Source of the DNA: a virus
Lineage: Duplodnaviria > Caudoviricetes
DNA length: 33,494 bases
Reading direction: 5' to 3' (one strand)
Virus record (IMG/VR): IMGVR_UViG_3300044724_000968
Coordinates: 1 to 33,494 of that record
Below are positions 13,983-33,126 of the stretch, in pieces; positions within the stretch are counted from its first letter, which is position 1, and each line of letters opens with the position of its first letter. The position numbers were made by a program, and so were the translations under genes. The notes below the pieces were generated by a model that did not search any database, was not told the origin of the DNA, and was given only the letters and a program-made list of their open reading frames with translations.

Positions 13983-16900
13983 ATGGGTATCTTTCAATAT
14001 ACTGATCCGCAAACCCGACGAAGCTATGACTTTGAAATTGCAGGTGATGACCCTAGTAACGAAGATTATGCTAAAATACGTCAATATTTAGACGGTGAAC
14101 GTGCTGAATACGCGCAGCGTTACCAAAATGTATTCGGTAAAGAGTTTGAAGTAGACGATGAAACAGCCGTGCGCCGTGGGCTTCGCCGTGGATATCAGCA
14201 GATTAAAGGTGCGGTTGGCGAAACACTTGGGACTGCTGGTGAGGAGGCGGGGCTTGGGTTTCTTGCAGAATACGGACAGGACGTAGAAGAGAGATCACGA
14301 CAGCGGCTAGGGGAACTACTACTTGAACAACCCGAACGTATGCAGTCAACTGACGTAGATAGTATTGGCTCTGCGTTGACGTATGCAGGAGAACTTGTTG
14401 GTGAGCAAATCCCGCAGCTTGGCCTTGGTCTTGGCGCAGCAATAGCAGCCCCTGTCATAGCAGGCACAACAGGCTTATCCGCAGTTGGTTTAGGGATAGC
14501 CGCAGGTGGCGTAGCCACAGCTCCAATTTTGTTTGGTAACAACATCCAGCGCCGCGAAGATGTTGTAGGTGAAGGCAATCTAACCGAAACTGACATATAC
14601 AACGCTCTAAAAGCCACATTCGGACAAGCAGCGCTTGAAGGTATATCCTCTAAAGTGTTGGCAGGTGGTCTATTCCGTCCGCTAGGCAAGTCTATATTTA
14701 CTCGCACAGCGAGCCGTGCGACAGGCGGTGCGACCACTGAAGGTTTAACTGAAGTCGGTCAACAAATGATGGAGCGAGCGCAAGCTGGCCTCCCAATCGA
14801 CAGCGAAGATGCTATTGCAGAATACCGTGAAGCAGCTATCGCAGGTGGTCTAATCGGTGGCGGCACACGCGCTACATTCGGTGCGTTCCAAGGTGTACCC
14901 GAAACTGAAGCAGAAAAGAAAGCTAGGCTTGAAGCAGAAGCAGACGTAGACGCAGAAGCCACTGCAGTTACCACAGAAGTAGAAACAGAAGCCGCTGCAG
15001 TCACCACAGACACAGATATAGGCACTGACCCTACGGACGTTACTCAACCAGAAGCGGATAAAGTCGAAGAAACTATAGCTGCGGCTGAAGAAATCACAAC
15101 CGTTACGGACGCTCAAGCTACAGAAGCAAGAAATGCTGCTGACTCTACACCACCCAAAGGCAAAGCAGAACAAACCGATACGCAGCGAGCGGTAGCCGCA
15201 GCCGATGTAGATACAAGTACAGATAAACAAACGGCGATTGCTAAAGAAGCAAGGTTAAAACAAGAAGAAGCATTAAGAAAAACTGAGAAATATATTAAAC
15301 CTGCCGTAGACCCCAACGCAGTAGCGGAAGATCGTGACGCTGCACTAAAAAGTGAGCAAAGCGGTGAGAATATACAGGTAGGGGTTAGAGAAGAAGTAGA
15401 AGTAGACGCTGTAACAACTGACTCTAATGTAATAGATGACGACTTCTTGTCAGGTCTAAGTGTACCGAAAGAGGCGTTGATTAGACGTAAAAACACAAAG
15501 ATAAGCTTAATCGGCAAAAAGAAAAACGATCCTGCGGTCATTGAAGCGTTAAAAAAATACGCGCTTACAAGTTCCGTATCAGCAGCCAAACAAGGCGTAA
15601 CTGATTATCTTAGTTCTGTAGGAGTATCTCTTGAAAGAAAATCTGACACAGAAAGACTTGGAGTTGGCGTTCCAAGTGATCAACCAAGCGTGGTTGGAGG
15701 ACTCGGACGAGACAGTACAGATACCGAGGTCGTTGCGGAAGCTGACGTGGGAAGACTGGGAACTGATCTGCCACCTGCTAGAGATACTGCAGATACAACA
15801 GGAATCGAGTCCGATACATTAGAAGATGTGGATTTTGTTACAGCACGGGGGTCTACTTACTCTATCAAAGAAGGCAACCGCACTAAACGAAATCGCGCCT
15901 CTAATACAAAAAGTGGTGAGTTCGTAGAACAGCCTACTAGCGGCAAAACAATTTATATGTCTTACGAAGATATGAATAAGTTTGGTTCGTTATTTCAACA
16001 AGGCGAGCTAGGACTGTATAAATTTCTTCCGATAGAAGGTACTACAAACGAAGCCCAGTTAGTTTACACTCAAGACTATGGACCATTTAAAGCCGGAGAT
16101 CCTGTATCGGATACACAGGTAACTTTTTCCACTACCCCAGAAGTAGGTAAACACCCCGTTGAGATTTATGACTCAACAAACAAAACTGGCAATGATATCC
16201 ACTTTGGCTCTAAAATAACAAAAGTAAATTCTACTAAACCTAAAACTGCAGCAGCGTTAGAAGAATTAAAACAGCAAGCTGATATTGCTACAGCCGAACC
16301 AGTAGCGCCTGCTCCTCAACCTGCTACACCTGCCATGCAGCAAGCAGCAATCGGTGGTGCCGAAACAGGACTTGCGGGACAAGTAATTCCTGAACCTGTA
16401 CAAGTACCCGCTGCACCGCCAATGCAAGCCGCGCCTGTTCCACAAGAACAGTTACAGGCTATGGAAGCGCAACAAGACGCTGCTGCACAAGCACGTATTG
16501 ACAGGGTGTTTGAGAGCAATCGGGGTAAGCAGCCACAGGTCCGAGAGTATCACGATACACAAGTAGACCCACGCTCTGCACCAGAAGTCACGACTGCGGT
16601 GGACAAAGAGGGTGTTGCAGACTTACTAGAAACCCCCGACAAAGATCTTGATACACGGGCTAAAGCGGCAAAACTTTTCTTCAAGCGGTTCCGCAGACCT
16701 GTTGATGCCCTCGCCGAAATGGGCGCAGTTAGTGCTGCTGGACCTGCACAGTCTATTGAAAAAGACTATACTCCGGTTGAGTTTGCTTTCTACAAAGGCA
16801 TGACCCAAAAGTCAGCTATGGATGCGCGGAAGTGGGTGTTTGATAATCTGTCTCGTCAAGCTTTTGTAGAAACACGCGATGCAAGTGTTCTTGCACGTCG

Positions 16901-19900
16901 AGACACAGCAAAATACAGCCCATCTGATGCGTATATCCGTGCAACTAAGTCAATCAAACAAGTCCTAAATAACGAGCAAAGAAGATATAATAGGCAGCTT
17001 GAAAAAGATGTAGAAGCGTACACAGAAGCAAAACGCGCAGAAGCCGCAGCGGAGCAGGTGAATAAACAGCTTGCACTAGATACTTCTATGGATGCGCCTC
17101 GACCTATGGTTACGCAGGCGGGAGAAGAACTTTTCCGTGTAACTACACCTAAAAAAGGTGAGACAGCATTCGATTCTTACTTGCTTAGTATGGGCTTTAA
17201 GAAACGCAAAGTACCTAAACAAGACGATTATGTATTTATAGATCCTGACACCAAAAAAGCTCTAACTGATGAAGAGCTTATGGACTTCTACGATGGTTGG
17301 GTTGCGTCCCGCGAAATGGGCTTCTTGCTTATTGACCCCGTGCATGGGCTAGACCAAGCGTTGCTTCCAAGCATCCGTAACGCGCTACAACGTGGGGATT
17401 TAGGTTTTGCGTTGGACGCTATAGCTTCAACAAGTCAAGTGGACCGCATTCGTGAAATTGCAGCCAAGCTTGCCAATGTTGTCGGCGATACACAGGTACA
17501 GGTAGTTGATGACCTATCCGCAATGACAGGGCGAAAAGCCGCTGGATTTTTTAGACCTCAAACAAATACAATTTTCATTGATGCTAACAACGGGATGAAC
17601 GTGCATACTATTCTGCACGAGATGACCCACGCAGCTACCTCGGCATCATTGGCGAACCCATCTCTACCAGAAGTAAAGCAGCTACAGGCTATACTTAAAA
17701 ATATGCGAGAGCAATTAGGTGAGGTGTATGGCACAGCAGACTTGGACGAGTTTGTTGCAGAAGCCTTCAGTAACCCTGAGTTCCAAAGAGCATTAGCTCT
17801 TGCCCCGGTAGATGGTGGTAAGATGTCAGGCTGGGAGAAGTTTACAGGTGCTGTAAAACGTATCGTCCGGAAGCTACTAGGTTTGTCACCTTCGCCGACT
17901 GCACTATCAGAAATAGATAGATTGATCGACGGTATGCTGGCCCCATCACCAGCCACACGCGCAGCGCCAAACATGTTGTTAGCAGCAGGTACACGAAAAG
18001 GTGCAGCAGATTTGTTGGGTACATATTTTACTGCTGTACCGAAAGAAGACAGAAATAGCTACGAGCGGATAAGGGATGTTGTTCTTGCTAACACCCCAAG
18101 GTCAGTTAAAAATTTTGCTCTTTCTTTGCAGCCCGTAACTAACTTAACTCGTATCGCTAAAGAACGTATTCCTTTTGCCCCAGAACTAAACGTATTAATT
18201 GACCAAGCGTCAGGAGCGTACCGAAAAGCTTTAGAGCCTGTCGATGTAATATACGAAGATTATAGAAAATTCCGTAAGGCAAACCGCGCCGCATACGATA
18301 AAATGCTTGGGTTAATGAACCGCGCAACCCAAGAAGAAGTTGATCCCGCACGTCCAAGAGATACGTACGCACAATACTGGTTATCTTATTTCGATAAGAA
18401 AACTGAAAAAACAGTGACCCGTGCATTTAAAAACGAACAAGCGCGTAATGCAGAAATAGCAAAATTAAACGCCGATTTAAAAGCTGATGAAGACGCAGGC
18501 AAAACACTAACTCGTACTAAAGCTAAAAAAGCTGGTGATGCTAATGCAGACAAAACGGCAATGTGGGATGTCCTAAATAAAGAATACAAGGCTTTAGGTA
18601 AGCAAGGGCAAGACCTGTATAAAATTACCCGCAATATGGGTGAGAGTGCTATGGACCGTATTCTTCCAGCTATGAAAGCACGTATAGACGCTATGGGGGT
18701 AGACAGCGCGACAAAACGAACAGCATTCGAAAAGCTTGCGGACCTACTCCATGCTGAAAGTGGTGTTATTCGTCCATACTTTAGGCTAAATCGTGATGGG
18801 GACTTCCGTCTACAATACGTTGCTCCTGATCCTCTTACAGGTAACGATGAAGTTTTCACTGAGCGGTACGACTCCGAAAGAAAATTACTACAAGCGCAAG
18901 AGAATGTTAATAAGTTTTTAAAACGTATAGAACGAGAAGACTTGGTTTCGCAGATAGAATCAGGTAGGGACAGCGGCGTACGGAATTACGGCAAAGCTCC
19001 TAGCTCTTCGTTTGTGTTTAACCTATTACAAACGCTACAAGCTACAGGCGTAGATCAAAAAACAATGGATCGGGTTGTTGATCTTGCTTTAGACGCTATT
19101 CCAGAGCGTTCATTTATGCAGTCGTTCCGTAGTCGTAAAGAACGCGCATCCGGTGGACGGGGTGTATTCGGTGCGCTTGGTGAGGTTACTCCGTCAGGTA
19201 TGCCCGGAATGGATGCTGACCCTGCAGAATTATTTCGAACAAATTTTCGTGGTATAGAGAAACAACTCGTACAGTTAGAGTATGGCGCAAAAATACAGCA
19301 GTTCCGTAATAAGTTAGAAGATGGGAACTATTTAAATCGCCTTGATACGGATGTAATGGCTAGAAAACTAGATAAAATAGCCGAATTTGCGCAGTCTCCA
19401 TCTATGCCAAACTGGTCGCGGATAGCTACATCTGCAGGGTTTGGGTGGACTATGGGCGCGAACATATCTTCTGCGGCTGTTACCTTATTTGATATGCCCA
19501 TGAGTGTATTCCCATATCTAAGCGGGGAATACGGCATAATGAAAACAACAAGTGCTATAAGTAATGGTGCTAAGTTATTTTTAGGGTCGCCCGAAACTAA
19601 GACAGTAACCATCATGGGCGCAGATGGGCAACCTGTTCAGCGTGAAGTGAAGATGAGTAAGTTTGGTAAGTCTATGGCTAACTATAACTACGACGATCCT
19701 AACTTGCCTAACGACATAAAAAGATATGAACCTCTCGTAAAACTTGGCACCCCACGTGGATTTTTTAACCAAAGTATGACCCAAGAACAGTTAGATATAA
19801 CTGGGGACCGTGATGTTTTAGAGAAAATAAATGTAGTAAGTAGTTTCTTATTTCACCACACAGAAAGAATGGGGCGTGAAACCTCTCTAATTGCCGCATA

Positions 19901-20993
19901 CGATTTAGAGTTAAATAAACTAAGTGACAACGGAAGAAAAAGAATCACAGAACAAGACGAGCGAGCCGCAGCAGAAAAAGCACTCGATTCTGTGGAGCTT
20001 ACGCTCGGAGGCACCGCCGCTGCTGGTAGACCAGTATTTGCACAAAATCCAGTCGGTAATGTGGTTTTCTTGTTTAAACGGTTTGCGGTGCAACGCTACT
20101 ACTACATGGCTCACCTGCTTGATCAGGCGTTGTCAGGAGCAGACCCAGAAACTCGCAGTATTGCTAAGAAACAACTAGCACAAGTCTTTATAATGTCAGG
20201 GATACTGGCTGGCGTAGGCGGTATGCCACTGATGGGCGCAATCGGCGCAATCTATAACATATTTACCGATGATGACGAAGATGATTTTGATGCCATGATG
20301 CGTAAGACTATACCGGGGGGTATGTATGACGGATTTGCAAACGAAATACTCGGTGTTGACGTGGCAAGTCGTGTCTCTATGAACAGCTTACTTTATCGCC
20401 CACCTATCGTAGAAAAAGATCAGTTTCCTCTTTGGACACTCGCAGAGCAAATAGGTGGCCCTGTCGTTGGATCAGTACAGAGTATATGGCGTGGCTACAA
20501 GTTGGTAGGAGAAGGTGAGTATCTACGCGGCGCAGAAGCCGCATTACCTGCAGCGGCAAGGAATCTTATTAGGGCGTATAGATTTGGAACAGAAGGCGCG
20601 ACAACCTTACGTGATGACCCAATCGTAAAAGACATTAACCCATACAATACGTTTATGCAGGGTCTAGGGTTCGCACCTGCAGATTATATCGAAAACCTAG
20701 AGAAGAACAGAAACGAGCGCAGTAAGAAAAACTTTATAGATCAAAAACGCCGTAAACTTATGAGGCGGTACAATATGGCTAGAAGAAACAACGACAACGA
20801 AGGCGTACAAAAAGCACTGCGTAAAATACAGGAGTTTAACGCCAACCTACCTTCAAACTACCGTGTAGAAAGTCGTATTGACCGTGAAGATCTTAGAAAA
20901 TCATATAAAGGGTTTACGCGCACTACGGGTAACATGGTAAATGGTGTTGTATATACAGACGCCATGCGTAAGAGTTACGAAGAGTATAAATAA
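13983..20993 (+). CDS. Giant internal virion / polyvalent protein with zincin metallopeptidase-like domain
   Basis: 2336-aa uninterrupted ORF with an N-terminal Gly/Ala hydrophobic region. HEMTH...DEFVAEAFSNPEFQ lies at about 17616-17785, followed by a PLxRFG-like YFRLNRDGDF and a helical C-terminal region. Confidence 0.75.
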   Translation: MGIFQYTDPQTRRSYDFEIAGDDPSNEDYAKIRQYLDGERAEYAQRYQNVFGKEFEVDDETAVRRGLRRGYQQIKGAVGETLGTAGEEAGLGFLAEYGQDVEERSRQRLGELLLEQPERMQSTDVDSIGSALTYAGELVGEQIPQLGLGLGAAIAAPVIAGTTGLSAVGLGIAAGGVATAPILFGNNIQRREDVVGEGNLTETDIYNALKATFGQAALEGISSKVLAGGLFRPLGKSIFTRTASRATGGATTEGLTEVGQQMMERAQAGLPIDSEDAIAEYREAAIAGGLIGGGTRATFGAFQGVPETEAEKKARLEAEADVDAEATAVTTEVETEAAAVTTDTDIGTDPTDVTQPEADKVEETIAAAEEITTVTDAQATEARNAADSTPPKGKAEQTDTQRAVAAADVDTSTDKQTAIAKEARLKQEEALRKTEKYIKPAVDPNAVAEDRDAALKSEQSGENIQVGVREEVEVDAVTTDSNVIDDDFLSGLSVPKEALIRRKNTKISLIGKKKNDPAVIEALKKYALTSSVSAAKQGVTDYLSSVGVSLERKSDTERLGVGVPSDQPSVVGGLGRDSTDTEVVAEADVGRLGTDLPPARDTADTTGIESDTLEDVDFVTARGSTYSIKEGNRTKRNRASNTKSGEFVEQPTSGKTIYMSYEDMNKFGSLFQQGELGLYKFLPIEGTTNEAQLVYTQDYGPFKAGDPVSDTQVTFSTTPEVGKHPVEIYDSTNKTGNDIHFGSKITKVNSTKPKTAAALEELKQQADIATAEPVAPAPQPATPAMQQAAIGGAETGLAGQVIPEPVQVPAAPPMQAAPVPQEQLQAMEAQQDAAAQARIDRVFESNRGKQPQVREYHDTQVDPRSAPEVTTAVDKEGVADLLETPDKDLDTRAKAAKLFFKRFRRPVDALAEMGAVSAAGPAQSIEKDYTPVEFAFYKGMTQKSAMDARKWVFDNLSRQAFVETRDASVLARRDTAKYSPSDAYIRATKSIKQVLNNEQRRYNRQLEKDVEAYTEAKRAEAAAEQVNKQLALDTSMDAPRPMVTQAGEELFRVTTPKKGETAFDSYLLSMGFKKRKVPKQDDYVFIDPDTKKALTDEELMDFYDGWVASREMGFLLIDPVHGLDQALLPSIRNALQRGDLGFALDAIASTSQVDRIREIAAKLANVVGDTQVQVVDDLSAMTGRKAAGFFRPQTNTIFIDANNGMNVHTILHEMTHAATSASLANPSLPEVKQLQAILKNMREQLGEVYGTADLDEFVAEAFSNPEFQRALALAPVDGGKMSGWEKFTGAVKRIVRKLLGLSPSPTALSEIDRLIDGMLAPSPATRAAPNMLLAAGTRKGAADLLGTYFTAVPKEDRNSYERIRDVVLANTPRSVKNFALSLQPVTNLTRIAKERIPFAPELNVLIDQASGAYRKALEPVDVIYEDYRKFRKANRAAYDKMLGLMNRATQEEVDPARPRDTYAQYWLSYFDKKTEKTVTRAFKNEQARNAEIAKLNADLKADEDAGKTLTRTKAKKAGDANADKTAMWDVLNKEYKALGKQGQDLYKITRNMGESAMDRILPAMKARIDAMGVDSATKRTAFEKLADLLHAESGVIRPYFRLNRDGDFRLQYVAPDPLTGNDEVFTERYDSERKLLQAQENVNKFLKRIEREDLVSQIESGRDSGVRNYGKAPSSSFVFNLLQTLQATGVDQKTMDRVVDLALDAIPERSFMQSFRSRKERASGGRGVFGALGEVTPSGMPGMDADPAELFRTNFRGIEKQLVQLEYGAKIQQFRNKLEDGNYLNRLDTDVMARKLDKIAEFAQSPSMPNWSRIATSAGFGWTMGANISSAAVTLFDMPMSVFPYLSGEYGIMKTTSAISNGAKLFLGSPETKTVTIMGADGQPVQREVKMSKFGKSMANYNYDDPNLPNDIKRYEPLVKLGTPRGFFNQSMTQEQLDITGDRDVLEKINVVSSFLFHHTERMGRETSLIAAYDLELNKLSDNGRKRITEQDERAAAEKALDSVELTLGGTAAAGRPVFAQNPVGNVVFLFKRFAVQRYYYMAHLLDQALSGADPETRSIAKKQLAQVFIMSGILAGVGGMPLMGAIGAIYNIFTDDDEDDFDAMMRKTIPGGMYDGFANEILGVDVASRVSMNSLLYRPPIVEKDQFPLWTLAEQIGGPVVGSVQSIWRGYKLVGEGEYLRGAEAALPAAARNLIRAYRFGTEGATTLRDDPIVKDINPYNTFMQGLGFAPADYIENLEKNRNERSKKNFIDQKRRKLMRRYNMARRNNDNEGVQKALRKIQEFNANLPSNYRVESRIDREDLRKSYKGFTRTTGNMVNGVVYTDAMRKSYEEYK
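15631..15822 (+). CDS. Candidate nested, overprinted 63-aa protein inside the giant gene
   Basis: AGGAG (15620-15624) lies 6 nt before the TTG. The product is an amphipathic helical sequence, while the host frame here is low-complexity. Confidence 0.45.
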   Translation: MKENLTQKDLELAFQVINQAWLEDSDETVQIPRSLRKLTWEDWELICHLLEILQIQQESSPIH

Positions 20994-28254: not shown

Positions 28255-30077
28255 TCACAATCTCCGTATGATTTTCCTGTGCCGCTTTCGCAGTCCACAG
28301 GTAGCCCTGCTGCCCAATCGGGTGTCCACCGCATACATTCTTCAACATATGCTTGCGCTGCATCGACCTCTTCGTCACGAACGCAGCAAACAATCGAGTC
28401 GTGTACCGTCAACACCACTTTGTATTTCTTACTTATTTTTAGCATTTGCTCGCCTATGATGCAACGTGCTAGTGCTTGGCACACGTTTTCTATTACCTTG
28501 CCACCGTATATTCTGGTGCGTCCACGGCGTGTTTTGTAGCTGTACTCAAGACCTTTTTCGCCCTGCTCACTATTTAAATTCTCATAAATAATGCTTAGTT
28601 TGCTCGGCATGATCAGCGAACTTTCTGCCGCTGCAACCTGCACCACACCTTTACGCCCAAACTGCGCGGCCCTTTTGTTTGCAAGCTGCTGCACCATGTA
28701 ATGAGCATCGCGCCATACCTTACTAATTTTGTAGTTGGCGTCACGATAGATGGTTATGATCCTACGGGCTTCGTCAGGTGCCACTTCAAACCCAAAAGTC
28801 TTTAGCTGCATCCCGAACTTCTCGGCACCCATGCCGTAACCTGCGCCAAGGATTGTGGTCTTACCAACGAACCGTTGATCCTTCGTGACATCCTCTTCTT
28901 CACAGTTGTATATACGTGCCGCCATTTTGACGTATACATCTTCGCCTTTCGCAAATGCGTTTGTGAGATCATCTTGCCCAGCGAACCATGCCAACACCCG
29001 CGCTTCGATCTGCGAACTGTCTGCCTCTACCAGAGTGCAGCCTTCGGGGGCGATCAGTGCCTTCTTTAGTTTCTTGGCGTTTGGCCCACGGCTCGGCAGG
29101 TTTTGTAGGTTTATCTTGTCAGCCCCACCCCAACGACCAGTGTGCGCGGCGTAGTATCTTACGGGGACCGGAAGCAGTCCACGTTTACAAATATCTATAA
29201 ACCTCTCTGTACGTGTTTCTTCTAAGGTACTTTTGCTACCCAAACGTGCCGCCACCAGAGATTGCACCCGATCATCATCGTGTTCTTGCAGAGCCTTGAA
29301 GCCCTCGTCAGACTTGGCAAAGGCGTACGTCTGCTTGTTTGTTGTTGGGCTGATTTTCATCGGGGGTTCCACCCCAATAGCTTTGAGCAGATCCGCAAAC
29401 TTAGGGTTCGACATAAGATCTTTCTTGTCGGTGACGTTTGCGTCACGCAATAGTTTGTCTTTGCGATCTTTGACATATTCTAAATGCTGCTCCAATAACT
29501 CAAGGTCCAGATCCAACGTGGGTTCAATGAACATCCGCAGCGTGAGGTCAATCAGTTTTAATTCTTGTCGGGGAAACACACGCCCCATCATCGTGAATAA
29601 TTTGTAGGTTAAATCTACATCGTTCTTGGCGTAGCCGCCGTACCGTGCAAGTTCTTGCTCAGTGAAATCGGTTTGACGCTTCCCTTTAGCGTTGTTGACT
29701 TCGGTGCCTTTGACGCCCACGCCGTATCGCTCTGCCACGGCTTTCAAGGATGCACTTGTTTCGATGCCGTGCAGGGCGCGAGACATGCACATAGTGTCAA
29801 ACCACACCTTTGGCTTCACGCCGTACCGCCATGAAAGTATAGCACCGTCGAACATCGTGTTGTGACACAAGATGGCGCTGTCAGAGAAGTTTATGTGTGA
29901 TAGTAAACCGGATAGTTGATGGGGATCAACTATCCACTTTGTAGCCTTGTCGTTCTTTTTGATTGCAAGGCCAATGACTTCGAAACGCCTATCACGCACG
30001 TATTCTTCCGTTGTCATCTTGGACAACGAATAATCTTTGTCGTAGTACGTTTCGAAGTCTAGGGTGTATACGTCCAT
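28251..30077 (-). CDS. polA: Family A DNA polymerase with 3'-5' exonuclease
   Basis: Exo I LDFETY, HNTMFD, TGRW, NLQNLP, motif A DSSQIEARVLAW, motif B RFVGKTTILGAGYG and motif C TVHDS. Confidence 0.95.
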   Translation of the reverse strand: MDVYTLDFETYYDKDYSLSKMTTEEYVRDRRFEVIGLAIKKNDKATKWIVDPHQLSGLLSHINFSDSAILCHNTMFDGAILSWRYGVKPKVWFDTMCMSRALHGIETSASLKAVAERYGVGVKGTEVNNAKGKRQTDFTEQELARYGGYAKNDVDLTYKLFTMMGRVFPRQELKLIDLTLRMFIEPTLDLDLELLEQHLEYVKDRKDKLLRDANVTDKKDLMSNPKFADLLKAIGVEPPMKISPTTNKQTYAFAKSDEGFKALQEHDDDRVQSLVAARLGSKSTLEETRTERFIDICKRGLLPVPVRYYAAHTGRWGGADKINLQNLPSRGPNAKKLKKALIAPEGCTLVEADSSQIEARVLAWFAGQDDLTNAFAKGEDVYVKMAARIYNCEEEDVTKDQRFVGKTTILGAGYGMGAEKFGMQLKTFGFEVAPDEARRIITIYRDANYKISKVWRDAHYMVQQLANKRAAQFGRKGVVQVAAAESSLIMPSKLSIIYENLNSEQGEKGLEYSYKTRRGRTRIYGGKVIENVCQALARCIIGEQMLKISKKYKVVLTVHDSIVCCVRDEEVDAAQAYVEECMRWTPDWAAGLPVDCESGTGKSYGDCE

Positions 30078-30901: not shown

Positions 30902-31399
30902 TCAAGCTGCATCTTCGTCGTCTATGCCGCGCAACGCATGAACGAGTTGTTCCATCGGTGTAACGTCATGCCCTACATGTTCGACACAGCCCCGATACCT
31001 AGCCAACCACGCAGCCAAAGCCTGTGCAGCTTGCAGTCGCAACTCTTGTTGCGAAGCTTCACTTGAAGGATCAAAAGGGATGTACCCGCCCCCATGCTTT
31101 CTGTCTTTCATGGGACTAATGTAAGCTGGGTAATCAGCTACTTTGATACGCACCTTAACATCTTTCACTGTCTCATGTTTAACAGTGATGCGAAGTCCGC
31201 GAATAAGTCCCGCAATCCGATCCTTCTCATACTCTTCGATCTTTTTGTCATCGGAAGCACCGAAGACGTAATCGTAAAATTCGTGATCTGGTTTTTGTTT
31301 TAGCCATTCACGTATTTGCGCGACATCAAGAGTATTCCTACCTGTTTCTGCCGCGTATTCATTTATAAGCCGCTGCTTATCGCTCTTCTTGAAGTTCAT
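30902..31399 (-). CDS. Uncharacterised protein directly downstream of the pentamer array (candidate accessory protein)
   Basis: 165 aa with a GGAG RBS. Motif KPDHEFYDYVF..SDD....YEKDRIAGLIRGLRITV...PAYISP...GGGY. Confidence 0.75.
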   Translation of the reverse strand: MNFKKSDKQRLINEYAAETGRNTLDVAQIREWLKQKPDHEFYDYVFGASDDKKIEEYEKDRIAGLIRGLRITVKHETVKDVKVRIKVADYPAYISPMKDRKHGGGYIPFDPSSEASQQELRLQAAQALAAWLARYRGCVEHVGHDVTPMEQLVHALRGIDDEDAA

Positions 31400-31426: not shown

Positions 31427-32257
31427 AAACCAAGCCGGACCATACCGTTTATGCGCCCCAACTCGCCGAACCCGTCCAAACCGGACCGTTCCCCGACCGC
31501 CGTAACTCTCCATGCCCAAACATATCTTACCGGACCCCGACCGCCTTAACATACCGCGACAAACCGCGACAGACCTAACCGGATCTCGCCCCGACCGCCA
31601 TGCCGAAAAACACCAAAACTTAACGGGCCGAACCGCACCATGACCGCCGTACCGAGACCCAACATGCCTGACTTACCACACCAAAGCGCACCGAAACACG
31701 ACCGCCGTAACTGACCGAACCACGCGAAACCAGAACAAACCTGACCGCACCGCACCTCGACCGCCCTACCATGCCCCACCGTGACTCAACTCGTCCCGAC
31801 ACGCCTTGCCTTGACCGCCCTACCATGCCCCACCGTGACTCAACTCGTCGCGACGCGCCTTGCCTTGACCGCCCTGACTGACCGTGATCAAACTGAACGG
31901 GCCATACCTAGACCGCCACGCCAAAAAACACCAAAACTTAACTCGCCGAACCAGAACTCACCTTGCCTAGACCGCCAGACCTTGACCAGCCGAACCCTAT
32001 ACGACCCAACCGAACCGCGACCGACATGCCGTGACCCAACTGATCATACCCCGCCCTAACAGACCTTACCTTGCCTTGACCGACACGCCGTAACCCAACT
32101 GACCTAACCCCGTCGAACCAAACCTTGCCTTGACCGACTTGCCTGACCGCAACCCACCTGACCGCTACGTGCCTCTCCACACCGCGCCTCGACCGACATA
32201 CCGAACCAAAACTCAACATAACCGACCGTAACTTACCCCGCCTCGACCGCCTTGACC
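31427..32257 (-). ncRNA. Non-coding G(G/T)Y-NN pentamer array of 15 units (putative guide RNA array)
   Basis: The delimiter GACCG(C/A)C (+ strand) starts at 31495, 31539, 31593, 31642, 31700, 31759, 31813, 31867, 31911, 31970, 32019, 32078, 32132, 32191 and 32245. Spacings are 44, 54, 49, 58, 59, 54, 54, 44, 59, 49, 59, 54, 59 and 54. Between delimiters a conserved triplet alternates with a variable dinucleotide. The repeat structure is directly seen; expression as RNA is inferred. Confidence 0.85.
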
Positions 32258-32268
32258 AAAAGGGGGAA

Positions 32269-32284
32269 GGGGCATTGCTGCCCC
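32269..32284 (-). promoter_or_regulatory. GNRA-tetraloop hairpin between the RAMP gene and the array (leader, processing site or attenuator)
   Basis: On the - strand it reads GGGGCA-GCAA-TGCCCC, followed by TTCCCCCTTTT and then the first array unit. Confidence 0.65.
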
Positions 32285-32289
32285 AACCT

Positions 32290-33126
32290 TTATTCTGCTG
32301 CAATGTCCTGTATATCCGCATCGAAGCGACGACCCATCTCTGACTTGACATATTCTACCAAGTCCGCTGTAACATCGTCGGCATACTCAGGATTATCCAT
32401 CGCTGCCTGTTGGACATCACGCCCCTCAAGCATCAACTCATCCCAAACTTTTTGTGGTGAACTGCCGTCTGGCATAAAGTCTGTCCAATCATCTCCGCTA
32501 TCGGATGTACCAACAACAAATGTGCCATAAGACCCACGGCCTTTCTCTTGCCGAAAATCACCGATACCAATGATTGCACCCGCATTGCTGAGTAGTGATA
32601 CAATACCATAGGCGCTGAGTGTTGGTTGAACATAGGCAATATCAACCTCTGCGCACCAACGCGGTAGATAACAACGCGTCCGTATGTCTGGCGTACGTTT
32701 AATATCTGCGGTGCGAACTATGTCAGTCTTTAACTGCGGCTTACCCCATATCTGAATGTGGGTTTGCGGCATAAAGATCAGACGTTGCACAGACGCCTTG
32801 GACACATTTTCTGTCTCAAGTGCTGCTGTAGCCATAGCAGCTTTGACCCCCGGAGCGGGGAAACATAGTAGTGTTTCTCCAAACTCCTTTTTGTATGCGG
32901 AGTCATAGAACTCTCTTATGGGATCATGTTTCATCCCTGTTAGCTGCTTCTTACCTTTGACCTTTTCTTTCGGTGCAGCAAGATCGCGCATTGTTTTGAC
33001 GCTCATGCTGTTGAAGTAAAGAGGTGTTGTACCAACCATCCGTAAACGGACACGACCCTTCTTGAACTGACTAATTTTAAGTGTTTGTTCTGAAGGTTCT
33101 ACGGTTTCTTTTTGCTTGAAAGCCAT
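32290..33126 (-). CDS. Stand-alone RAMP-superfamily (Cas7/Csm3-like) RNA-binding protein
   Basis: The first strand RLRMVGTTPLYF, the segment FPAPGVKAAM (cf. IPGSSLKGAL) and the C-terminal Gly-rich loop GIGDFRQEKGRGSYGTF occur in RAMP order. The gene is adjacent to the array. Confidence 0.75.
   Translation of the reverse strand: MAFKQKETVEPSEQTLKISQFKKGRVRLRMVGTTPLYFNSMSVKTMRDLAAPKEKVKGKKQLTGMKHDPIREFYDSAYKKEFGETLLCFPAPGVKAAMATAALETENVSKASVQRLIFMPQTHIQIWGKPQLKTDIVRTADIKRTPDIRTRCYLPRWCAEVDIAYVQPTLSAYGIVSLLSNAGAIIGIGDFRQEKGRGSYGTFVVGTSDSGDDWTDFMPDGSSPQKVWDELMLEGRDVQQAAMDNPEYADDVTADLVEYVKSEMGRRFDADIQDIAAE

What the first reader, a model, noticed from the sequence alone, without database searches (positions are those of the whole stretch)
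31546..31595. A second unit decodes to a PolA-like motif, GDPYLAFA
The - strand NN series GG GA CC TA CT GC TT GC AT AA gives G(D/E)PYLA(F/L)A(I/M)(K/N). This fits the GDPYLAFA segment I recall between motifs A and B in a group of phage/prophage family A polymerases. This phage's own polymerase reads GEDVYVKMA there, so it would not be self-targeted. This unit decodes in the opposite orientation to the integrase unit, which favours a dsDNA target over an mRNA target (inference).
Basis: inference. Interest (0 to 1): 0.8.

Follow-up and report, generated by a model that had tools for sequence, protein, structure and literature searches.

The report
Phage guide aimed at island polymerase
A repeat unit in this estuarine phage spells, at 19 of 20 coded letters, a conserved stretch of a DNA polymerase gene carried by small integrated mobile elements of aquatic bacteria, so it is likely an RNA guide of the known VIPR type that the phage uses to silence those elements.

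Summary
The unit (31546-31599, minus strand) is one of 15 in a GGY/NN array between a Cas7-like gene (32290-33126) and a conserved 165-aa gene: a VIPR locus. The exact 20-base target was found nowhere (0 in IMG/VR, 0 of 120 metagenome loci, 0 of 64 GTDB matches). A slightly degenerate pattern fell in frame, skip on the wobble base, on the GDPY[LIM]AFAIQ motif of one family A polymerase clade in 119 of 120 metagenome loci and 60 of 62 GTDB loci; 55 and 26 of these differ from this guide by one base in the last NN. That clade includes the reference CHEAP enzyme and sits mostly in small integrase-bearing islands, not in phages. Fourteen related arrays keep the unit, with variants that mirror the target's L/I and A/S changes, and other units of related arrays hit the same islands at further sites (14 of 281 versus 5 of 1405 shuffles). 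No self-target. Silencing, expression and a helper-satellite link are inferred. VIPR against satellites is known; this target class was not found in print.

The parts
31546..31599 (-). Array unit 13: predicted vrRNA guide with 10 NN pairs against the CHEAP-clade polymerase motif
   Evidence: covered at 100% identity by a DNA contig and an RNA-library contig
31448..32251 (-). GGY/NN array of 15 units, each opened by G[GT]CGGTC; 13 of 14 head-to-head spacings are 4 modulo 5 (staggered layout)
32290..33126 (-). vipr candidate, 278 aa, RAMP/Cas7-like fold with invariant C-terminal glycine-rich loop
   Evidence: alignment A1; model pLDDT 68; Foldseek Csm3-type chains E 1.4e-4; VIA Z 6.2 Cmr, 6.0 Csm; profile hits SUSP1 Vipr 36pp_D at E 0.036
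30902..31399 (-). Accessory gene candidate (vap), 165 aa, no family found
   Evidence: homolog in 69 of 80 related vipr loci; no Pfam, PHROG or NCBIfam hit; only unnamed Atlas clusters
31977..32025 (-). Unit 5: decodes antisense to an integrase-like HDLRHEA motif
   Evidence: 60 of 72 IMG/VR loci; motif name recalled
32139..32197 (-). Unit 2: decodes sense to a terminase-large-subunit motif of the EAIETAQGA type
   Evidence: 120 of 120 IMG/VR loci in frame
28920..28946 (-). Homologous site in the phage's own PolA (GEDVYVKMA), not matched by the guide

Best explanation
The unit is likely one guide RNA of a phage VIPR system, whose ten NN pairs match the polymerase gene of small integrated mobile elements at 19 of 20 bases, and which is predicted to silence that gene by binding its DNA. 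Shown: array anatomy, a RAMP-like gene and a conserved accessory gene beside it, the in-frame match with the skip on the wobble base, the absence of a self-target, and the convergence of related arrays on several genes of the same elements. Inferred from the published SUSP1 system: the array is transcribed with vipr, cut into single guides at the GGCGGTC register shifts, coated by Vipr at each GGY, and the NN pairs read the template strand of the polymerase gene two bases at a time, blocking transcription. Inferred from gene content: the elements (integrase, AlpA-type regulator, a conserved 190-200 aa gene, CHEAP polymerase, small HTH-like gene, often an HGGxSTG or terminase gene) are resident parasites or competitors that would replicate during infection, and the guide would keep them from doing so.
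For: 119 of 120 metagenome loci and 60 of 62 GTDB loci in frame in one PolA clade; skipped bases vary as synonymous third positions across 135 distinct sites; 4 of 401 genomes of one family carry the 18-base site within one mismatch, all 4 in this polymerase, reversed control 0 of 401. The unit is kept in 14 of 80 related loci, with variants CT/AT, GC/TC, CA/AA, of which the three CA-ending combinations have exact natural targets. Other units hit two more polymerase motifs, the integrase, AlpA and the HGGxSTG gene of the same elements, repeated on separate GTDB loci: 14 of 281 units versus 5 of 1405 shuffles, 1-4 under other skip rules, 3 of 281 in flanking host DNA. 35 of 79 arrays carry at least one such unit. 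Elements: integrase within 6 kb in 25 of 34 long loci, att-like repeats at tRNA ends in L220 and L274 and a circular 8.3 kb form L213, sporadic presence (1 of 61 relatives).
Against: No exact 20-base target was found; only 3 of 113 homologs have a last residue compatible with AA. In IMG/VR the hit count is at background (12 versus 14). None of the window's other 14 units matches the element loci better than shuffles. The degenerate pattern was built after L002 and the related arrays had been seen, and no control pattern could be run in the metagenome or GTDB scans. Targets of the window's L variant in GTDB span many classes, while the Roseobacter-group and SAR116 hits carry I or M, so the true target host is not fixed. 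No DNA homology between phages and elements, no HGGxSTG gene in 5 related phage records; 9 of 34 long loci showed no integrase with the queries used and most showed no att repeat. Protein membership rests on modest scores (Z about 6, E 0.036).
Confidence: 0.8

Rival explanations
1. The guide is real, but the elements do not depend on this phage: they are self-replicating or defence-carrying islands that the phage silences as generic competitors.
For: No shared DNA or packaging gene with the phages; the same array also aims at tailed-phage terminase and at integrases of prophage-like contigs; the elements are rare in IMG/VR (6 of 10 hits); hosts are very broad.
Against: Integrase-AlpA-replicase layout with no capsid gene parallels PICMI (PMC10803314) and VEIME module 6 (PMC9618062); some carry terminase genes; 35 of 79 arrays spend guides on them.
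Confidence: 0.35
2. This copy is a drifted, weakened guide (last NN changed from CA to AA), or it aims at a variant ending in K or N that is not sampled.
For: 12 of 15 aligned copies have CA, 3 near-identical phages have AA; no exact target found.
Against: The first nine NN pairs are intact; 95% match is above the 80% cut-off used in the VIPR paper; an abundant clade reads GDPYLAFAIA (35 of 113), so the last position varies in the targets too. I found no mismatch-tolerance data in the passages searched.
Confidence: 0.15
3. The match is chance: with 15 units and two orientations some NN string lands on a conserved motif.
For: Many conserved motifs exist; background-level counts in IMG/VR.
Against: Variants of the unit track target variants; independent units converge on the same elements; reversed control 0 of 401 versus 4 of 401.
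Confidence: 0.03
4. The RAMP protein uses the units against mRNA, as Csm3/Cmr4 do.
For: Nearest solved folds are type III RAMPs; unit 5 is complementary to integrase mRNA.
Against: This unit and unit 2 have the same sense as the target mRNA and could not pair with it, if the minus strand is the one transcribed.
Confidence: 0.03

Closest known systems
VIPR systems (10.64898/2026.04.26.720920; SUSP1 type II; staggered arrays of its Fig. S18)
   Same: RAMP gene, accessory gene and GGY/NN repeats; 1-nt skip on the wobble base; targets on both strands; no self-target; register shift between units as in the staggered arrays.
   Different: 15 tail-less abutting units instead of four guides with a structured tail; 278-aa Vipr; accessory gene of no known family; estuarine phage. 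Type I-VII could not be assigned (Data S1-S4 not seen).
SUSP1 VIPR against its satellite (10.64898/2026.10.15.759431)
   Same: A phage without integrase (0 of 5 related records) aims guides at a small integrated element, including its recombinase.
   Different: Here a main target is a replicative polymerase; the elements have no tail genes shared with the phage and no orphan arrays of 7 or more repeats; dependence on the phage is not shown.
CHEAP polymerases, cluster 15 (PMC10201439)
   Same: The reference enzyme A0A643FCZ2 carries the same three motifs hit by guides (YCASDV, KTGRNQPS, GDPYLAFAKQ); about 580 aa, exonuclease DxE, leucine at B3.
   Different: The passages read call CHEAPs cellular auxiliary enzymes with no known partners; here they lie in integrase-bearing islands with a conserved upstream partner gene (32 of 34 loci).
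PICMI (PMC10803314) and VEIME module 6 (PMC9618062)
   Same: Small size, integrase, AlpA, a gene between integrase and AlpA, one replication gene, no capsid; module 6 VEIMEs are described with DNA polymerase and small terminase genes in Alphaproteobacteria.
   Different: PICMI needs a primase and inserts at fis in Vibrionaceae; these carry PolA, insert at tRNA or other sites, in many taxa. Identity with module 6 was not tested.
CcPol-MP / PolA-SSB primases (PMC10061031)
   Same: PolA with a small neighbouring gene on recombinase-bearing islands; CCPol is CHEAP's closest relative.
   Different: Those are in Bacillota with a helicase; no helicase cluster was seen here and the partner's fold is unknown (one search gave no usable hit).

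Membership tests
VIPR | Stand-alone RAMP-fold protein with glycine-rich loop, no CRISPR array or cas operon | tested here: met
   profile reaches SUSP1 Vipr at E 0.036; scores are modest
VIPR | Adjacent array of alternating GGY/NN repeats | tested here: met
   15 units of 8-11 NN; units in 79 loci including the window
VIPR | NN series matches natural DNA with a 1-nt skip on the wobble base, not with 0, 2 or 3 | tested here: met
VIPR | Targets on both strands and no self-target | tested here: met
   units 2 and 13 sense, unit 5 antisense
VIPR | Accessory vap gene | tested here: inconclusive
   conserved neighbour in 69 of 80 loci but not assignable to vap1-6
VIPR | Expressed, processed guides bound by Vipr; repression of the target | not testable with these tools
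   one search shows contigs only: one RNA library covers the array and not the genes, without strand or ends
Type II VIPR (SUSP1-like) | Separate guides each with a structured 3' tail | tested here: not met
   units abut with a 4-modulo-5 spacing and no tail
CHEAP (target gene) | Clusters with I. dechloratans A0A643FCZ2; intact exonuclease and polymerase motifs, leucine at B3 | tested here: met
   shared motifs read in the paper's supplement rows 43-44; no alignment or tree with the reference was run
PICMI (target element) | int, alpA and primase, inserted at fis | tested here: not met
   PolA in place of primase; tRNA and other sites
Phage satellite (target element) | Excises, replicates and is packaged with a helper phage | not testable with these tools
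   only indirect: att repeats, one circular contig, terminase genes in some

The most novel reading that the evidence does not exclude
The CHEAP polymerases, described as cellular enzymes of unknown role, are the replicases of an undescribed, widespread family of minimal phage satellites (integrase, AlpA, partner protein, PolA), and a clade of aquatic lytic phages has devoted a large share of its VIPR guides to them, so the arrays read as a record of which phages these satellites parasitize.
Probability: 0.4. Interest if true: 0.75.

Novelty: new member of a known kind. Interest (0 to 1): 0.55.

Why it matters
It extends VIPR-versus-resident-element conflict from E. coli to aquatic phages and names a concrete, testable guide-target pair. 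It also places the CHEAP polymerase subfamily on small mobile islands, which offers a role for an enzyme whose role was open, and shows that decoded arrays can point to satellite-like families and their likely helpers without culture. The system and the principle are already published, which caps the surprise.

Tried and rejected
Exact 20-base pattern in IMG/VR: 0. Raw hit counts in IMG/VR are uninformative (12 versus 14 reversed); of the 12, 4 were the polymerase, 3 one unrelated phage protein, 5 scattered. L269/L270 looked like a tandem element but is a repeated host gene, not in frame; dropped, with L196, from later counts. Unit 5's 2-mismatch site near the L255 element lies in host DNA and is treated as chance. 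Unit 7's 3-mismatch sites in the same polymerase are within shuffle range. Single-sequence fold of Vipr failed (pLDDT 32). The profile's top PDB sequence hits (EpiD, E 0.004) are a short stretch not borne out by the fold searches. No Rfam family, no sigma-70-like promoter. No phage-element DNA homology or orphan arrays. Atlas gave nothing usable for the element's partner gene. The deep representative search was not obtained, so the Vipr alignment has 37 rows. RNA runs X15 and X16 cover parts of the genes and little of the array; lack of cover in contigs proves nothing. Literature searches showed no paper linking VIPR guides to CHEAP islands; HGGxSTG gave 0 papers.

Full report
What is there. 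The window is a whole 33.5 kb virus record with tail and virion genes on the plus strand and primase-helicase, SNF2 helicase, exonuclease and PolA on the minus strand. Its DNA occurs in estuary, marsh and freshwater runs. Its PolA's best GenBank phage match is 36%, so the host is unknown. On the minus strand lie, in order, a 278-aa gene (32290-33126), an array (32251-31448) and a 165-aa gene (30902-31399). The array has 15 units, each opened by G[GT]CGGTC and made of NN pairs separated by G[GAT]Y triplets; 13 of 14 spacings are 4 modulo 5, the exception being a unit with a one-base deletion.

The system. A 37-row alignment of the 278-aa protein has an invariant glycine-rich C-terminal loop; the model (pLDDT 68) matches Csm3/Cmr/Cas7 chains (Foldseek best E 1.4e-4; Z 6.2 and 6.0 with rmsd 4.2 and 3.6 over 156 and 136 residues), and the profile reaches SUSP1 Vipr weakly (E 0.036). 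The 165-aa gene has a homolog in 69 of 80 related loci. This is the VIPR anatomy of 10.64898/2026.04.26.720920 (read: parts 1-3, 5, 6 of 6, and keyword passages of the supplement PDF; Data S1-S4 not seen), whose Fig. S18 legend describes staggered arrays with 1-nt overlaps.

The target. The exact 20-base pattern has 0 hits in IMG/VR. The 16-base core has 12, of which 4 are in frame in a family A polymerase; a reversed control has 14 scattered hits. Related arrays then showed the same unit in 14 of 80 loci with three variable NN positions. A pattern allowing those variants gave 120 metagenome loci (scan stopped at 31 of 64 parts), 119 in frame in one polymerase clade, and 62 GTDB loci, 60 likewise. 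None is a 20 of 20 match to the window's unit; 55 of 120 and 26 of 62 match the first nine NN pairs and differ by one base in the last. Skipped bases behave as synonymous third positions. An unbiased protein search confirms the motif: 113 of 120 homologs carry it, and positions 1-4, 7 and 8 are compatible with the guide in all 113. In 401 genomes of one family 4 carry the site, all in this polymerase, against 0 for the reversed pattern. The phage's own polymerase clade reads EDVY[VIK] here and no self-target exists in the window or in 5 related records.

Which polymerase. It has no close relative among 50,697 GenBank phages (best 28.5% over 58%). The reference CHEAP enzyme of PMC10201439 (read: keyword passages, section 26, supplement rows 43-44) carries the same motif and the two other polymerase motifs hit by related guides. 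In 34 loci long enough to judge, a conserved 190-200 aa gene lies beside it in 32, a small gene after it in 32, an integrase in 25, an AlpA or excisionase-type gene in 15 and an HGGxSTG or small terminase gene in 12 (families). Flanks are host metabolic genes. L220 and L274 are bounded by duplicated tRNA ends 11.3 and 10.2 kb apart, L213 is a circle of about 8.3 kb with HNH and both terminase genes; most of the 28 loci tested showed no clear att repeat. The gene was found in 1 of 61 relatives of a carrier. This layout resembles PICMI (PMC10803314: abstract, section 10) with PolA in place of primase, VEIME module 6 (PMC9618062: passages, section 5) and the PolA-SSB islands of PMC10061031 (parts 1-3 of 5), without being shown to be any of them.

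Convergence. Of 286 distinct units from 79 arrays, 24 match the metagenome element loci within two mismatches (5 are this unit's family, matching by construction) against 10 of 858 shuffles. On the separate GTDB loci, 14 of the other 281 match the element core against 5 of 1405 shuffles and 1-4 under other skip rules; 3 of 281 match the flanks. Units are not independent, but the sites are distinct: two more polymerase motifs, several integrase sites, AlpA and the HGGxSTG gene. 35 of 79 arrays hold at least one such unit. Phages with the 65%-identical Vipr have a different polymerase from the window's, so the locus and this guide are shared across phage lineages. Against: none of the window's other 14 units hits these elements. 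Two of them have other targets: unit 2 a terminase motif of tailed phages (120 of 120; gene name from motif context and gene order, recalled, with 5 tblastn hits) and unit 5 an integrase-like motif on the antisense strand (60 of 72; patterns slightly degenerate).

Mechanism. By analogy with SUSP1 (10.64898/2026.10.15.759431: part 1 of 8 and passages; 10.64898/2026.04.26.720927: abstract start and one passage), Vipr would coat the guide, pair its NN pairs with the template strand of the polymerase gene and block transcription, preventing the element from replicating. Because this guide has the sense of the mRNA, the target would have to be DNA. Expression is only hinted at: contigs of one RNA library cover the array, including this unit at 100%, and not the genes, but contigs give no strand or ends. 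Whether the elements are packaged by these phages is open: no shared DNA or HGGxSTG gene was found.

Verdict. Observation confirmed; interpretation supported with the carrier corrected from phages to small integrated elements and the match corrected to 19 of 20. New member of a known system, with a target class not found in searches. An earlier scan note (e1-6298652) reports a related marine VIPR locus with an integrase-directed guide; it is an unchecked note and was not used as support.

Noticed in passing
window 32139-32197 (-): Unit 2 decodes to a terminase-large-subunit motif of tailed phages (120 of 120 IMG/VR hits in frame); relatives of this unit occur in 21 of 79 arrays.
   Followed up: partly
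window 31977-32025 (-): Unit 5 decodes antisense to an integrase-like HDLRHEA motif (60 of 72 hits); related units in 13 arrays.
   Followed up: partly
window 31649-31706 (-): Unit 11 has a one-base deletion that breaks the pentamer register; units 8 and 9 (31766-31873) are a recent tandem duplication differing in two NN pairs.
   Followed up: no
window 31766-32138 (-): Units 3, 4, 8 and 9 form a family starting AA AA and ending GG A[CT]; no target found in the loci held.
   Followed up: no
L013-L017: Phages with 99-100% identical Vipr have different unit sets and orders, which points to fast gain, loss and shuffling of units at the GGCGGTC heads; how units are acquired is unexplained.
   Followed up: no
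L213 1-8418: Circular 8.3 kb element with integrase, excisionase, CHEAP-clade polymerase, HNH, small and large terminase and no capsid gene.
   Followed up: partly
L073-L087: A more distant Vipr group has the array split in two blocks about 600-700 bases apart and AlpA-like decodes were not checked.
   Followed up: no
window 32269-32284: A GC-rich hairpin between the vipr stop and the first array unit; could mark processing or convergent termination.
   Followed up: no
window 13983-20993 (+): 2336-aa virion-type protein with LPD39 and a DarB-like antirestriction match.
   Followed up: no
L248, L255, L104, L149: Several island polymerase genes appear frameshifted or split, some in long-read assemblies; decay or sequencing error not separated.
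   Followed up: no
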